NCBI GenBank assembly: GCA_963806185.1
Contig: CAWDXE010000001.1
Location: 704,001 to 768,000, forward strand
Length of the DNA stretch: 64,000 bases
Source: an uncultured candidate division Zixibacteria bacterium
GTDB lineage: Bacteria > Zixibacteria > MSB-5A5 > GN15 > FEB-12
Direction of reading: 5' to 3'
Of the stretch, positions 54,562 to 60,244 are shown piece by piece (positions within the stretch are counted from its first letter, which is position 1; each line of letters starts with the position of its first letter). Both the position numbers and the translations under genes were made by a program. The notes beneath the pieces are model-generated. The model was not told where the DNA came from, made no database searches, and saw nothing but the letters and a program-made list of their open reading frames with translations.

Positions 54562-55953
54562 ATGCAGACTATACACGATCCACACGACGCCATAAATTCT
54601 CGCATCGTCAAGCCAGGCAGCCGGATATACATGTCCGGCAATGCCGCCACCCCGCAGGTGATAACTAAAGCGCTCGGCGCGGACCACACGGTAAACGGCC
54701 TTGACCTCTATGTCGTTCTTCCGCTCGGTGATGGCATAAAGGAACTCTATTCCCGCGAACGGTGTCAGGGAATCACCCATCGCGTCATTTTCAACAGTCA
54801 ATGGACGCGCGACGCTATCAACAACGGCTGGGCATACTACCACCCCACTCACCTCTCCGAACTTCCCCGGACCATTCGCTACCACTTCAAGCCAAGTGTC
54901 GTGTTTGCCTCCGTAAGCGGACCCGATCGCGGCGGACGGTATTCGCTGGGGACGACTGTCGAGGGTGTACTGCGTGCGATCCACGAAGTCAAGCGCGCCG
55001 GTGGCGTGGTCATTGCGGAGAATAACCGGCAAATGCCATTCGTCCTGGGTACCACCATCGACGAATCTTCGATCGACTACATGATTGATGTCGACTATCC
55101 ACTTCCTCAGGCCCCGTTTCAACACCCCGATGATCAGGCGAAGCGCATCGGCGAAATTATCGCTGCGCTGTATGTCAAGGACGGACGGGGAACGACAGCC
55201 GGCTCGACTTTGCAGTACGGAATCGGCGAGGTACCGGAGGCAGTCACCGACGCCATCCTTCGCCTCGGGTACGGCGACCTGGCTATTCACACAGAGTTGT
55301 TCGCCGACGGCATGGCGCGCCTTGTACAAAAGGGCGTGGTAACGAACAGATGGAAGACCAATCTGAATTTCTCCGTCTCGTCAATATTTCTCAGCGAGTC
55401 GCAGGCTGGGTATGATTGGATGTCGTACAACAGCGCCGTTCAGAGCCGGCCGAGCAACTACACCAACTCGGTTTTCAAGATTGCCGAGCTACCGAACATG
55501 GTGGCGATCAATAGCGCGATCGGTGTGGATCTTCACGGCAACATTTGGGCGGATTCGCTCGAGGCCCGCAAGATTTACAGCGGCGTCGGCGGTCAGGCCG
55601 ATTTTATCCGCGGCTCGCAGTACTCCAAGATAGGGGTGGCGATCATTGCGCTGAAATCCTCGACGAGTGACGGTATCTCCAAGGTGGTCGACCGTTCGCC
55701 GGCCGGCATCACGACGACCGCTATTCCCTCAGACCAGGTTATCCTGGTGACCGAGCAGGGCGCTTTCGATCCGCGCGGCCTGAGCCTTGGTGAACGGGCG
55801 CTGGGCATCGCACATCTGGCTCGCCCGGAGGAACGCGATCGTCTGTTGAAGCTCGTGATGGACAATGCCGCGTATCACAAGTCGTCCACGGGCCACAGCG
55901 GTCGCATCCCCGGCTTCACCAGCTACGACGACGCGGTGAAGGGGAGGTACTAG
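54562..55953 (+). CDS. Acetyl-CoA hydrolase/transferase family protein (4-hydroxybutyrate CoA-transferase-like)
   Basis: 'GNAATP', 'GSTLQYGIGEVP', 'IHTELFADG', 'YSGVGGQADFIRG' and 'VTEQG'. Confidence 0.88.
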   Translation: MQTIHDPHDAINSRIVKPGSRIYMSGNAATPQVITKALGADHTVNGLDLYVVLPLGDGIKELYSRERCQGITHRVIFNSQWTRDAINNGWAYYHPTHLSELPRTIRYHFKPSVVFASVSGPDRGGRYSLGTTVEGVLRAIHEVKRAGGVVIAENNRQMPFVLGTTIDESSIDYMIDVDYPLPQAPFQHPDDQAKRIGEIIAALYVKDGRGTTAGSTLQYGIGEVPEAVTDAILRLGYGDLAIHTELFADGMARLVQKGVVTNRWKTNLNFSVSSIFLSESQAGYDWMSYNSAVQSRPSNYTNSVFKIAELPNMVAINSAIGVDLHGNIWADSLEARKIYSGVGGQADFIRGSQYSKIGVAIIALKSSTSDGISKVVDRSPAGITTTAIPSDQVILVTEQGAFDPRGLSLGERALGIAHLARPEERDRLLKLVMDNAAYHKSSTGHSGRIPGFTSYDDAVKGRY

Positions 55954-56084
55954 CGGTCGCACCGCCTTACGGGATTAAACCGCCTCTTTTGCCTGATGAC
56001 GATCTCTGCTCCTCCTCTTGACAATCACCATCAATTGACGTAGAGTCATAGAGCGATTATACCATTCTACGTTCGGAGGAGAGC

Positions 56085-56591
56085 ATGACGCGCTTGATCG
56101 GCTGTTGCATTCTGGCCTTCTTGGTTTGTGGTTTTTCGGTAGACGCCAGGGAGATAAAGCTCAAGAACACTTTCTTCGGGGGATGGAAATACTCTGTCGA
56201 TGGGGGCGACTTTCATAAAGTCGGCTGGACCGGTAAGACGCTTCGACTAGAGATGGAGGACAATCCAGAATCCGTCAAGCTGATTGATTCCTATCGCAAA
56301 TACAATCTCGCTGGCCAGATTATTGGTATACCCGGAGGGTTCTTGGTGGGCTGGGCGGCCGGATCTGCCATCGCCGGCAGATACAAAGACAGCGACAAAA
56401 CCTTACTCACAATTGGTGCTCCGTTGTGTGCCACCAGCATCGTGTTAGAATTGGTTGCGAACGGCAAACTGAAAAAGGCAATCAAAACGTATAACGACCC
56501 GGCCCCGGCAGTAACTCTTCGGACAGATGTTCAGATGCGAACAGTGAACGGTCACGCGACTGGATTTGCAGTACTCGCATTGGGATTCTGA
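56085..56591 (+). CDS. Hypothetical exported/membrane protein
   Basis: GGAGGAG RBS; signal peptide; two hydrophobic segments. Confidence 0.7.
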   Translation: MTRLIGCCILAFLVCGFSVDAREIKLKNTFFGGWKYSVDGGDFHKVGWTGKTLRLEMEDNPESVKLIDSYRKYNLAGQIIGIPGGFLVGWAAGSAIAGRYKDSDKTLLTIGAPLCATSIVLELVANGKLKKAIKTYNDPAPAVTLRTDVQMRTVNGHATGFAVLALGF

Positions 56592-56620
56592 TCGAGTCAC
56601 GAATAACTGCACAACCACCA

Positions 56621-56666
56621 GAAAGCCCGGCACAGGGAGTTGACAATACTCTTGCGCCGGGCTTTC
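56621..56666 (+). terminator. Stem-loop, probable terminator
   Basis: GAAAGCCCGGC...GCCGGGCTTTC inverted repeat after the stop at 56591. Confidence 0.55.
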
Positions 56667-56714
56667 CGTTGAATTGGCACGTGGTGTCGGACCCCCGTGC
56701 CTGACACTATTCCC

Positions 56715-56766
56715 CCAATACTCATTGCGAGGAGCGCTTCCCAGCGCGGCGAAGCTATCTCGAATC
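56715..56766 (+). repeat. REP-like repeat copy A
   Basis: CCAATACTCATTGCGAGGAGCG...GAAGCTATCTCGAATC; 49/52 identical to copy C. Confidence 0.85.
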
Positions 56767-56813
56767 TCTTGATCGCCGCTGAACAGTCGCTCTCTGAAGC
56801 CCTTCACTAGTGT

Positions 56814-57104
56814 CTACTTTCCCTCCAGAATCTCCGTGCCCAAATCCTCCCACGTTGGGTTCATCGCGTTCACCAGTGCGATCTTGTCGCTCCGTGATCC
56901 TCCCTTGAGTTGCTTTTCCCGAATAATCGCCTCTCGAAGGTCAGGCGTCTCCTCGAAGTAAACCAGCTTGTATACTCTGTATTTCTGTGTAAACCCGGCG
57001 ATCAACCCCTGTCGATGCTGAAGCAGGCGTGCCCGGATGTTCCTTGTCACACCCGTATAGAGGACGGTGTTTCTTGCGTTTGTAAGTATGTAAACGAATG
57101 GCAT
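56814..57104 (-). CDS. Stand-alone GIY-YIG nuclease family protein (96 aa)
   Basis: 'FVYILTN...LYTGVT', 'R..QH', 'FTQKY..YKLVYFE', 'AIIREKQLK..SR..K' and 'NPTWEDL'; GAGG RBS before ATG 57104. Confidence 0.92.
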   Translation of the reverse strand: MPFVYILTNARNTVLYTGVTRNIRARLLQHRQGLIAGFTQKYRVYKLVYFEETPDLREAIIREKQLKGGSRSDKIALVNAMNPTWEDLGTEILEGK

Positions 57105-57121
57105 AGAACCTCGCAGGCCTT

Positions 57122-57156
57122 GAGATTGCTTCGTCGCTTCGCTCCTCGCAATGAGT
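57122..57156 (-). repeat. REP-like repeat copy B (inverted relative to A and C)
   Basis: GAGATTGCTTCGTCGCTTCGCTCCTCGCAATGAGT is the reverse complement of the A/C core, with a shorter loop. Confidence 0.85.
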
Positions 57157-57206
57157 CCTTTGAGACTTCGACGTAGCCTCATGCCCCCGTGGGTCAAACC
57201 ACTAAG

Positions 57207-57258
57207 CCAATACTCATTGCGAGGAGCGCCTCCCAGCGCGACGAAGCAATCTCGAATC
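57207..57258 (+). repeat. REP-like repeat copy C
   Basis: CCAATACTCATTGCGAGGAGCGCCTCCCAGCGCGACGAAGCAATCTCGAATC. Confidence 0.85.
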
Positions 57259-57508
57259 CCGCTACAACCTGAGACTCTCCCCACGCTCCCATTACTCTAT
57301 GGGAGTAGGTATAGTGTGTTTGTCCCGAGAGAATCTCCACCCCCCCACTGACACCTGCAGTCAGTCAAAATCGTCACATTTACCCCCCACTTGACTTATC
57401 CACAATAATTGCCGTTCTTGTCGCCAACCTAAAACGTTTCCTGATACCGTCCCGGTGGGAAATCCTCGCTCGCGCACAACTGCGCTTCGGACAGTTTCAC
57501 GAACAACT

Positions 57509-58789
57509 ATGAAAGACCACATGACAGCAGCTAAACTGTCCCCCGCCGGATTCTCCGGCCTCGGTATCGCTCCCGGCCTCATGGCCGCCATCGCTCGCCT
57601 CAACTTTGTCGAGCCCACCGCCGTCCAGCGCAAATCGATTCCGGTCGGTCTAGAAGGCAAGGACGTTATCGTCATCGCTCAAACCGGCACCGGCAAAACC
57701 CTGGCTTACGGCATCCCCCTCATTCAGCGCCTCGCCCAGATCAAGGGGCGCGGCCTCGTCCTGCTTCCCTCGCGCGAGCTGGCCATCCAGGTTGACGAAG
57801 CCCTCAAGTCGGTCGGCAAAGCCGTCGGCATGCGCTCGGCCCTTCTGATCGGCGGCGCCTCGATGAGTCTCCAGCGCACCGCCCTGTTGAAGCGTCCGCG
57901 CATTATCATCGCTACCCCGGGCCGATTGCTCGACCATATGCAGCATCGCACAGTTGACCTCACCGACGTTCGCATCCTTGTGCTCGACGAAGCCGACCGG
58001 ATGCTCGACATGGGCTTCGCCCCGCAGATCAATCGTGTGTTCGACGTAGTCCCAAAAGATCGTCAGACCATGCTTTTCTCGGCCACTATGCCGGGTGAAA
58101 TCGTACACATCGCGCAAAAGCGGATGAAACTTCCGATCCACGTCGAAATCGCACCGCCGGGCACAACCGCTGATAGAGTTGAACAGGAAGTCTTTTTCGT
58201 CGATCGCGAGAATAAGACCAGCCTGTTGGAAATCCTCTTGAAGGAATCTCCCGGCTCGACTCTTGTGTTCACCCGTACCAAGCATGGCGCTCGCAAGCTG
58301 ACACGCTCAGTGAAGAATATGGGCCACTCCGCCGCGGAACTCCACTCCGACCGCACCCAGGCCCAACGTCAGGCGTCGCTGGCCGGATTCAAATCGGGTA
58401 AGTATCGCGTATTGGTGGCTACTGATATCGCCGCGCGCGGTCTTGACGTCACCGGTATCGAGATGGTCGTCAACTACGATCTCCCAACCGAAACCGAGAC
58501 CTACGTCCATCGCATCGGTCGCACCGGCCGCGCTGGCCAACCGGGCCGCGCGGTGTCATTCGCGACCTTTGACCAACGCAGCGATATTCGCGATATCGAA
58601 CGCCTGATTCGCACTGCTTTGCCGGTCTCCAAGCTCCCCTCATCGCTCCCGGCGCGCACCCGTCTGGATCGGCCGGAAGACATTCGATCTCAGAATGTCC
58701 CCACGCGTGTTTCACCGCCCAGAGAACAACCGGCCTTCGGCCGCGCCGCTCGTCGCGACGGTTTCAAGAAGCGCCGCCAGATTCGATAG
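57509..58789 (+). CDS. DEAD-box RNA helicase (RhlE-like)
   Basis: Q motif; 'AQTGTGKT', 'PSRELA', 'TPGRL', 'DEAD', 'SAT' and 'YVHRIGRTGRAG'; basic C-terminal tail. Start 57509 or 57521. Confidence 0.95.
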   Translation: MKDHMTAAKLSPAGFSGLGIAPGLMAAIARLNFVEPTAVQRKSIPVGLEGKDVIVIAQTGTGKTLAYGIPLIQRLAQIKGRGLVLLPSRELAIQVDEALKSVGKAVGMRSALLIGGASMSLQRTALLKRPRIIIATPGRLLDHMQHRTVDLTDVRILVLDEADRMLDMGFAPQINRVFDVVPKDRQTMLFSATMPGEIVHIAQKRMKLPIHVEIAPPGTTADRVEQEVFFVDRENKTSLLEILLKESPGSTLVFTRTKHGARKLTRSVKNMGHSAAELHSDRTQAQRQASLAGFKSGKYRVLVATDIAARGLDVTGIEMVVNYDLPTETETYVHRIGRTGRAGQPGRAVSFATFDQRSDIRDIERLIRTALPVSKLPSSLPARTRLDRPEDIRSQNVPTRVSPPREQPAFGRAARRDGFKKRRQIR

Positions 58790-58799
58790 ACATGTTATG

Positions 58800-59177
58800 C
58801 GTGGCGCACGTCTCGTGCGCCACGTTGTCCTTTTCCCCTGCCACATCATCACAAATCGTCATGCTGAAGCCGATTCAAATCGGCCTTCAGCATCTGCGTG
58901 TCCACCGAACTTTCGAACATGTCATTGAGAGGCTCACTTCCCCATAGATGTCATTGCGAGGCGCGCTTCGCGCCGTGGCAATCTTTCAGTTCACTTCACG
59001 TTGTCCGTCACCCTTCGCCTCCGCTCAAGATGAACTACGTCGAAGTGCGACTGTACAATTGCTTCCCCGCCCTCACCCCAACCCTCTCCCTGAAGGGAGA
59101 GGGAGCATAGATGCGTACCCCAGAGGTCACCGATTGACGAAGTGTATCTTGAGCAAAGCCGAAGGGCTCAGGCTGAC
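58800..59177. repeat. Cluster of several distinct palindromic REP-like elements between convergent genes
   Basis: Hairpins at 58800-58824, 58857-58895, 58950-58984 (related to copies A-C) and 59070-59104, plus an inverted pair at 59011-59031 / 59146-59166. Confidence 0.75.
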
Positions 59178-59212
59178 ACAAGTGAATTCAACTTTAGCTT
59201 GAGAATGGGAAA

Positions 59213-60244
59213 TTAGAACCCAATATGCAGCGCTTTGATCAGGTAGAAACACCCCGCTGCAATCAACCCCGCCGCCGGAATCGTCAAAAGCCACGCCCAC
59301 ACGATGCGTTCCGCTACACCCCACTTGATTCCCGATAACTTCGTAGTACTGCCAACACCGATAATGCCGCCCGTTATCGTGTGCGTTGTGGAAACCGGAA
59401 TACCAAAATGAGTGGCACCGAAAAGCGTGAGTGCCCCGGCGGTCTCAGCACAAAAGCCGCCCACCGGCTTCAGCTTCGTGATCTTCATTCCCATCGTCTT
59501 GACTATCCGCCAGCCGCCCAATGCCGTGCCGACACCCATCGCCGCGTGACACGATAAAATGATCCAAAGCGTGTTCCACTCGGTGAGCGAAAGCTGGGTC
59601 CCTGGCCGCATCATGCCCCCGGCAATGAGCAGGGCCATGATAATGCCCATCGTCTTCTGCGCATCATTGCCGCCATGTCCCAACGAATATAGAGCCGCGG
59701 AGAATAACTGTGCCTTGCGAAATATCTTGTCTACTTCGGTCGGACGATACCTCCTGAACAGCCAATAAACTCCCACCATAATGGCGAAACCGAGCACCAG
59801 TCCAATGAGCGGCGCGAGCGGAATAAACTTGACCGTCTTCCAGATATTCTCCCAGTGAATGACGTCCATCCCCTTGTAGGCAAGACCGGCCCCGGCCACG
59901 CCGCCGATCAGCGCGTGCGACGAACTGGTCGGCAAGCCAAGCCACCAGGTGATCAGATCCCAGACTACTGCCCCCAACAATCCCGCGAGTACAACATACA
60001 CGTACACCGTGTCGGTGCCGTCTATCTGTACAATCTTCGCAATCGTATCGGCTACACGTGGCGCAAAGATGAACATCGCCACAAAGTTGAAAAATGCCGC
60101 CCACAGCACCGCCACACGCGGGCTGAGCACGCGCGTCGAGACAACTGTTGCTATCGAATTGGCCGCATCGTGAAACCCGTTGATCACGTCAAAAACCAGC
60201 GCGACGCCGACTGTACAAACGACTACAATCTCAACGGAACTCAT
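59213..60244 (-). CDS. pit: Inorganic phosphate transporter, PiT family
   Basis: 'NGFHDAANSIATVVST', 'GLPTSSSHALIGG', 'HGGNDAQKTMG' and 'GIPVSTTH'. Confidence 0.95.
   Translation of the reverse strand: MSSVEIVVVCTVGVALVFDVINGFHDAANSIATVVSTRVLSPRVAVLWAAFFNFVAMFIFAPRVADTIAKIVQIDGTDTVYVYVVLAGLLGAVVWDLITWWLGLPTSSSHALIGGVAGAGLAYKGMDVIHWENIWKTVKFIPLAPLIGLVLGFAIMVGVYWLFRRYRPTEVDKIFRKAQLFSAALYSLGHGGNDAQKTMGIIMALLIAGGMMRPGTQLSLTEWNTLWIILSCHAAMGVGTALGGWRIVKTMGMKITKLKPVGGFCAETAGALTLFGATHFGIPVSTTHTITGGIIGVGSTTKLSGIKWGVAERIVWAWLLTIPAAGLIAAGCFYLIKALHIGF

What the first reader, a model, noticed from the sequence alone, without database searches (positions are those of the whole stretch)
56715..57258. GIY-YIG nuclease bracketed by inverted REP-like repeats: a RAYT/REP-like module with a different enzyme?
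Seen: a 96-aa GIY-YIG gene lies between inverted copies A (56715-56766) and B (57122-57156) of a hairpin-forming repeat (ACTCATTGCGAGGAGCG...CGACGAAGCAATCTC). A third copy C (49/52 identical to A) lies 50 nt further on, and a diverged copy sits at 58950. No transposase and no obvious target-site duplication. Established: REP repeats are propagated by adjacent HUH RAYT transposases in the same gene-flanked-by-REPs layout. Inference: this nuclease may recognise, nick or mobilise the repeat family, forming a minimal selfish element.
Basis: partly seen in the sequence, partly recalled or inferred. Interest (0 to 1): 0.72.

Follow-up and report, generated by a model that had tools for sequence, protein, structure and literature searches.

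The report
Ssn nuclease with its private repeat
A tiny nuclease gene of the already published Ssn family sits between inverted copies of a short repeat found about 30 times in this genome and in none of 60 relatives searched; it likely cuts and likely helps spread that repeat, and these repeats line up with a DNA strand-bias pattern that may point to several replication start sites in this bacterium.

Summary
Observation confirmed, though single copies are weak hairpins. The idea is already in print: this is the Ssn system (single-domain GIY-YIG ssDNA nucleases with flanking hairpins; Chenal 2025, PMC11893778), whose Discussion draws the REP/transposase parallel. The protein is 46-47% identical to Neisseria orthologues and keeps the tested catalytic residues. 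The scan found Ssn loci before on other DNA.

What is different here: (1) the repeat has an internal loop, misses the published SRM pattern, and its CTC-headed form is private to this genome (27 copies vs 0 in 60 relatives); (2) four Ssn paralogues each carry their own repeat type, and repeat type tracks protein branch in 114 homologues; (3) related cassettes are missing at the orthologous site in three congener comparisons; (4) solo repeats lie on the C-rich strand (58 of 66 clusters). No cleavage or movement is shown.

In passing: the genome's GC skew is sawtooth, with eight abrupt upward steps and dnaA at none, as if replicated from several origins. A repeat-rich relative shows many sign changes; a repeat-poor one looks classical. 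The repeats are not point origins. Verdict: new variant of a known kind.

The parts
56814..57104 (-). Ssn-family single-domain GIY-YIG nuclease gene, 96 aa; Y5, Y16, R26, H30, E63, N83 intact; GSR motif at 69-71 where Neisseria has WNR
56715..56766 (+). Repeat copy A (CTC-headed subfamily T1; head at 56720-23), tail toward the gene's 3' end
57122..57156 (-). Repeat copy B (T1, short form), tail toward the gene's start, 17 nt before the ATG
   Evidence: contigs of other organisms match this core and diverge at 57122 and 57154
57207..57258 (+). Repeat copy C (T1), 49/52 identical to A, head-to-head with B; B+C fold into one long hairpin
56679..56707 (+). Separate GTGG-headed palindrome next to A's head; 4 similar copies elsewhere in the genome; with A it forms an 88-nt direct repeat (80%) of 57171-57258
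57171..57206 (+). Diverged counterpart of the 56679 palindrome between B and C
   Evidence: family D1
58950..58984 (+). Copy D: sister subfamily T2 (GTC head), the type that flanks the paralogue at G000:C7:1009901
58921..58940 (+). Truncated repeat head 29 nt upstream of D (head duplication)
58858..59190 (.). Mosaic of several palindrome families after the DEAD-box helicase gene, D among them

Best explanation
The 96-residue gene is an Ssn-family GIY-YIG nuclease flanked tail-inward by its own repeat subfamily, which it likely binds as single-stranded DNA, likely cuts a few bases upstream of the repeat head, and likely helps to copy around the genome. Shown: family-level homology, intact catalytic residues, one repeat type per paralogue, repeat type tracking protein branch, a genome-private amplified subfamily, patchy cassettes in congeners, strand polarity of solo copies. 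Inferred from Neisseria SsnA (cut 4 nt 5' of the head, one strand only): cuts near 56715/16 (+) and 57160/61 (-), i.e. outside the repeat pair, one per strand, bracketing a unit of about 445 bp. The nuclease cannot rejoin DNA (established for GIY-YIG hydrolases, recalled), so spread would need host break repair, likely at fork-associated single-stranded DNA. The repeat likely forms a 4-5 bp base stem, a purine-rich internal loop and a variable upper stem. Odds by step: Ssn homologue 0.95; cuts its own repeat 0.8; drives spread 0.55.
For: 46% over 92 aa to the NTS-flanked N. gonorrhoeae orthologue (E 1.5e-24) and 47% to a protein named as N. meningitidis, against E 0.0013 to the YhbQ-type PDB entry 1zg2. 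4 of 4 Ssn-like genes of this genome have 2-3 copies of one repeat type within 250 bp and none of the other three types. On a 114-row tree the T label needs 8 changes (shuffled mean 23.5; 0 of 500 as low); the GS/GT motif goes with T flanks in 19 and no flank in 4, never N or B. Both flanks are tail-inward in 36 of 57 loci with repeats on both sides (16 of 23 for T). CTC-headed pattern: 27 here, 0 in 60 relatives. Genomes with a T-branch gene have 10 or more T repeats in 10 of 11, others in 11 of 49. T-branch cassettes are missing at the orthologous site in G004, G122 and G034. One base-stem pair covaries: T-A 57, C-G 27, other 4. Solo repeats: 58 of 66 scored clusters on the C-rich strand, no link to gene direction (27 vs 25); 30 vs 9 in G052.
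Against: No biochemistry for this branch; the published SRM pattern does not match. T1 units fold poorly: 2 of 19 distinct inner parts beat shuffles, against 19 of 20 for T2. 11 of 49 relatives have many T repeats and no T-branch gene found, and a 29-copy T3 subfamily here has no gene found (genome 82% complete). Congeners are about 80% identical, too far for junctions or for telling gain from loss. The tree is a quick one, 100 columns, 9 of 111 branches starred; most rows come from one phylum; kin are not independent. Polarity is not Ssn-specific (a GTAG-type family shows 42 vs 7), may partly reflect C-rich target flanks, and is not evident for 84 NTS in N. gonorrhoeae.
Confidence: 0.6

Rival explanations
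1. The nuclease recognises the repeat but is a host-domesticated ssDNA restriction or repair factor; the repeats are spread by something else (RAYT/Y1 transposases, recombination, slippage).
For: In N. meningitidis SsnA lowers integration of NTS-bearing transforming DNA (PMC11893778). Six Y1 genes are in the genome. Repeat families co-cluster (59 of 145 within 1 kb of another family; null mean 18, max 37). Repeat-rich relatives without a found T-branch gene exist.
Against: 0 of 6 Y1 genes have T or N repeats within 600 bp; PMC3733652 also found CGTC repeats not linked to transposases. A private head variant amplified to about 30 copies beside its own gene, and patchy multi-paralogue cassettes, fit selfish turnover better.
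Confidence: 0.28
2. Repeat clusters and their nucleases create or mark DnaA-independent replication start zones (break- or nick-primed replication), which would explain the sawtooth GC skew.
For: 2 of 4 Ssn genes lie within 1.5 kb of a cumulative-skew minimum; 40 of 73 repeat clusters lie within 50 kb of one (26% of the genome); 52 point toward the nearest minimum, 8 away, 9 far. Repeat-rich G052 has about 15 minus-to-plus changes in 80 samples; G012, with 1 T match and no clear N-type hairpins, has one clear change near dnaA.
Against: Oriented skew shows no step at the repeat (-0.089 left, -0.081 right) and turns positive only about 45 kb on. This window's gene is 104 kb from a minimum. The 10 minima used were picked by eye from 17. 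Only three genomes. No shared non-repeat element was found at the minima.
Confidence: 0.08
3. The gene is an ordinary small GIY-YIG passenger that happens to sit in an intergenic hotspot where repeats pile up.
For: Repeats of many families do pile up together; 23 of 114 tree rows had no recognised flank.
Against: One type per paralogue, tail-inward bias, and motif-to-repeat correspondence across phyla.
Confidence: 0.04

Closest known systems
Ssn nucleases with NTS/SRM repeats (SsnA of Neisseria meningitidis, CDD cd10448; Chenal et al. 2025, PMC11893778)
   Same: Single-domain 94-96 aa GIY-YIG protein, 46-47% identity, same three tested catalytic residues, gene flanked by oriented palindromic repeats that are also dispersed in the genome; the paper already proposes the selfish-element and REP analogy.
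   Different: Repeat has an internal loop and a CTC head and misses the SRM search pattern; protein has GSR in place of WNR..W; tail-inward inverted flanks (head-inward at the N. gonorrhoeae locus); four paralogues with four repeat types; mostly solo, strand-polarised copies. None of the four enzymes tested in the paper is described with this repeat type (no match to two core motifs in its 14 supplements).
CGTC-tagged REP families (Di Nocera et al. 2013, PMC3733652; include Neisseria dRS3 and Rickettsia RPE-4/-6)
   Same: Unpaired 4-nt head, stem opening with AT, short tail, no linked transposase.
   Different: Described stems are 8-9 bp with 4-5 nt loops; here the stem is interrupted and the head is ACTC. 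The consensus figure could not be seen, and similar repeats in Rickettsia are recalled but unchecked, so the GTC-headed T type may already be catalogued.
RAYT (TnpA-REP) with GTAG REPs; IS200/IS605
   Same: Gene flanked by inverted cognate palindromes, ssDNA substrate, orientation bias to replication reported for IS200 (PMC3971601).
   Different: HUH/Y1 enzymes cut and rejoin; GIY-YIG is unrelated and hydrolytic (recalled). No PF01797 match at this locus.
Multi-origin, DnaA-independent replication in cyanobacteria (PMC7198777), for the incidental skew finding
   Same: Departure from a two-replichore skew in a bacterium that still encodes dnaA.
   Different: Those genomes are called irregular; here the skew is strong and regular, with abrupt upward steps and gradual decline. 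Origin use is not measured here.

Membership tests
Ssn nuclease family | BLAST E < 1e-10 with at least 75% cover to Neisseria SsnA | tested here: met
   E 1.5e-24, 92 of 94 residues, against the N. gonorrhoeae orthologue used as proxy; 47% to cluster-mate P0007 named N. meningitidis. CAX49033 itself was not in hand.
Ssn nuclease family | Single GIY-YIG domain, under 150 aa | tested here: met
   96 aa, PF01541 only
Ssn nuclease family | Catalytic Y6, Y17, E64 | tested here: met
   Y5, Y16, E63 in the alignment
Ssn nuclease family | Top CDD hit cd10448 | not testable with these tools
   No CDD library; closer to Neisseria SsnA than to YhbQ-type 1zg2
Ssn nuclease family | Flanked by oriented 20-50 nt palindromic repeats dispersed in the genome (common, not universal: 71% one side, 42% both in the paper) | tested here: met
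Ssn nuclease family | Site-specific cleavage of ssDNA 5' of the cognate repeat | not testable with these tools
   needs purified protein
SRM repeats as published | Match to the degenerate SRM search pattern | tested here: not met
   0 matches in window 56001-59100; 47 elsewhere in the genome. The repeat is therefore filed as a variant, not as an SRM.
SRM repeats as published | Continuous hairpin stem | tested here: inconclusive
   A, B, C fold no better than shuffles; base-stem pair covaries across subfamilies
RAYT/REP module | HUH Y1 transposase (PF01797) between the repeats | tested here: not met
   six PF01797 matches, none here, none within 600 bp of these repeats
RAYT/REP module | GTAG-type head on the repeat | tested here: not met
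   head is ACTC in 28 of 30 T1 copies
Mobile element (IS-like) | Empty orthologous sites with defined junctions | tested here: inconclusive
   three congener sites lack a related cassette, junctions unalignable; no close relative for this locus

The most novel reading that the evidence does not exclude
Ssn nucleases are the missing propagators of CGTC-type REPs, act with replication-strand polarity, and diversify fast into enzyme-repeat pairs with private specificity; and in this lineage repeat-rich genomes have left single-origin replication for about eight to fifteen origins per chromosome, with the repeat-nuclease load as cause or companion.
Probability: 0.15. Interest if true: 0.88.

Novelty: new variant of a known kind. 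Interest (0 to 1): 0.45.

Why it matters
The enzyme that spreads CGTC-type REPs has been an open question since 2013, and Ssn is the standing candidate. This genome offers a clean test set: four enzymes, four repeat types, one repeat private to the genome, one paralogue that seems to have switched target. A 4 x 4 cleavage matrix would give the specificity code and extend ssDNA tools to an interrupted-stem target that the published pattern misses. The strand polarity ties repeat gain or loss to replication. The incidental sawtooth skew matters on its own: a bacterium with strong, regular multi-origin replication signatures would surprise specialists, and it can be tested from sequence alone.

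Tried and rejected
Rfam on 55900-59300: two chance eukaryotic lncRNA hits below threshold. Promoter and terminator scan of 56560-57520: 0 and 0. NCBIfam: no family over cut-off. PDB sequences: only 1zg2. Empty site for this locus: 60 relatives gave no synteny of the neighbours; seven runs with 5-8% of words gave no piece spanning the cassette, and no RNA holder was listed, which is no evidence. Congener tests for L085 and L024 were uninformative. Repeats as point origins: rejected by the oriented skew profile. Skew as a gene-direction effect: rejected (rho 0.08; four-fold sites rho +0.96 and -0.96). DnaA-box clusters (3 or more per kb): none. Shared genes or 11-mers at nine minima: only repeat mosaics and common paralogues. 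My first translation was off frame, corrected. Skew of two more single-contig relatives (G151, G039) is not known. Print searches: Ssn terms gave only PMC11893778 as relevant; the head 10-mer gave 47 papers, 25 listed, none about this repeat by title; RPE terms gave 2 papers, listing only; polarity and multi-origin searches gave nothing on this lineage or on Ssn (the lineage name used was my guess). Most subscription papers are outside this library. No structure was predicted.

Full report
Observation. The minus-strand gene 57104-56814 encodes 96 aa with one GIY-YIG domain. A and B both point their tails at the gene. Singly, A, B and C do not fold better than shuffles. The family reads as a short base stem, a purine-rich internal loop and a variable upper part; one base-stem pair changes from T-A (57) to C-G (27) together, with 4 other cases. 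The 58950 copy is a sister subfamily.

What it is. A paper search led to the Ssn family. Of PMC11893778 I read the abstract, parts 1-5 of 11 of the text (Introduction, Results, Discussion, first Methods), sections 17 and 18, Supplementary Data 5, part 1 of 2 of the supplementary PDF, and searched all 14 supplements; figures were not visible. It shows that four such enzymes cut ssDNA near their own repeat, that Neisseria SsnA lowers transformation by repeat-bearing DNA, and it proposes the IS200/REP analogy. The window protein meets its BLAST, size and catalytic-residue criteria against a 94-aa N. gonorrhoeae orthologue flanked by exact NTS copies. The repeat does not match the SRM pattern. PMC3733652 (passages only) catalogued CGTC-headed REPs and found no linked transposase.

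This genome. Seven PF01541 matches exist: four Ssn-like, two other small ones, one in a 635-aa frame. Each of the four has its own repeat type within 250 bp: window T1 (3 copies), C7 T2 (3), C1:866754 N1 (2), C6 N2 (2); genome counts are 30, 30, 53 and 32, against 0-2 in five simulated genomes (the patterns were written by me after seeing the flanks, and N counts include nested matches). So 27 of 30 T1 copies lie away from the gene. The CTC-headed pattern occurs 27 times here and in 0 of 60 relatives; of 66 T-type copies beside homologous genes only the 3 in this window have it. The paper found the three bases before the stem to matter most for cleavage, so a shifted specificity is the natural inference.

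Homologues. 119 loci (own paralogues; 49 of the 58 non-self matches were fetched) were classed by flank. Five were dropped (three fragments, one duplicate, one frameshift). Of 114 rows: 36 N, 28 B (another interrupted type), 26 T, 1 mixed, 23 none. Labels cluster on the tree (27 changes; shuffled 62.8; 0 of 200), though the tree is the quick version with weak support. A protein motif separates them: GS/GT 19 T and 4 none; W..W 28 N, 1 mixed, 7 none; 46 of 112 rows fit neither. Both flanks are tail-inward in 36 of 57. T-branch genes go with T-rich genomes (10 of 11 vs 11 of 49; kin not independent). Of five congener tests three were informative: G004, G122 and G034 lack the cassette at the orthologous site, G034 keeping one repeat and G133 keeping the cassette.

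Strand polarity. Excluding gene-flanking copies, 134 copies form 70 clusters: 58 on the C-rich strand, 8 on the G-rich, 4 flat; no relation to gene direction. In G052, 68 T matches reduce to 57 counted: 30, 9 and 18 flat. If G-rich marks the leading strand (established; PMC7111523 passages), the strand that SsnA would cut is the leading-strand template, not the exposed lagging-strand template. That fits either loss of self-cutting orientations or insertion into nascent lagging strand; I cannot separate them. Against over-reading: flanks are C-richer than background, a GTAG-type family is polarised too (42 vs 7) while three others are not, and N. gonorrhoeae NTS show no clear bias. PMC3971601 (passages) reports such bias for IS200. 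The Ssn main text has no occurrence of lagging, leading strand, replichore or skew.

Mechanism. From the oligos and the 20-nt product in the paper SsnA cuts 4 nt before the head. Carried over, cuts fall outside A and B, one per strand, bracketing about 445 bp; this is inference. Rejoining would need host repair. The 88-nt direct repeat (56679-766, 57171-258) suggests C arose by local duplication of A with its neighbour; also inference.

Incidental skew. G000 shows eight upward skew steps of 0.118-0.248 (two more under 0.09) and seven downward ones, none above 0.11; the skew is independent of gene direction and follows four-fold sites; dnaA (C1:993839) is 129 kb from the nearest strong minimum. 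G052 (80 samples, 36% of it) has about 15 minus-to-plus changes by my count; G012 (40 samples) has one clear change near its dnaA plus one isolated blip. Repeats crowd near the steps and point at them, but skew does not step at the repeats. Several origins is the simplest reading (my odds 0.55); misassembly or inversions are not excluded without reads. Multi-origin replication is known in cyanobacteria (PMC7198777, abstract). Searches and the scan's own notes showed nothing on this pattern here.

Verdict. Real, and a variant of a system published in 2025 and met often in this scan. The added value is the four-pair test set, the private repeat, the polarity and the skew lead.

Noticed in passing
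G000, steps near C1:214k, C1:866k, C4:184k, C4:310k, C5:46k, C6:150k, C7:404k, C7:862k: Sawtooth GC skew with abrupt upward steps and gradual decline, independent of gene direction; dnaA at none of them. Looks like several replication origins. Many sign changes also in G052, classical pattern in G012.
   Followed up: partly
G000:C1:866467-866769: Ssn paralogue that groups with the two T-type genes (SH-aLRT 95, long branch) but is flanked by continuous-stem N1 repeats: an apparent target switch.
   Followed up: partly
G000, 29 copies, e.g. C6:150714: Third interrupted subfamily (T3) with a compensatory C-G pair in the base stem and no gene found beside it.
   Followed up: partly
G000:C5:47747-48120: Small GIY-YIG gene of another branch (YhbQ-like by my reading) followed by a different palindrome; a broad pattern for that type gives 44 copies, also polarised (31 vs 8).
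   Followed up: partly
G000:C5:189600-190060: 88-aa GIY-YIG gene between a tRNA-like gene and a repeat of that gene's 3' end; tRNA identity not checked.
   Followed up: no
G000:C6:108387, C1:1018330, C5:58623, C1:836346, C6:16738, C5:284100: Six Y1 (RAYT-like) genes, each with its own GTAG/GTGG-type palindromes in the flanks.
   Followed up: partly
window 58921-58984; G000:C6:151080-151200: Head duplications: truncated 5' arms stacked upstream of full repeats (T1 0 of 30, T2 4 of 30, N1 10 of 53, N2 19 of 32, nested matches included).
   Followed up: partly
window 57396-57404: One perfect DnaA box between the cassette and the DEAD-box helicase gene; 20 in the genome, no cluster of three.
   Followed up: partly
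window 56085-56591: 168-aa ORF with a signal-like start and hydrophobic stretches; no Pfam or NCBIfam match.
   Followed up: no
L017 (NZ_CP119140.1): Listed as a plasmid but 2.17 Mb with dnaA at position 544: apparently the N. gonorrhoeae chromosome.
   Followed up: no
L156 (G004:C20:3154-3267): The site that holds an Ssn cassette in G107 holds an inverted pair of a different palindrome family in G004: the same intergenic spot is reused.
   Followed up: no
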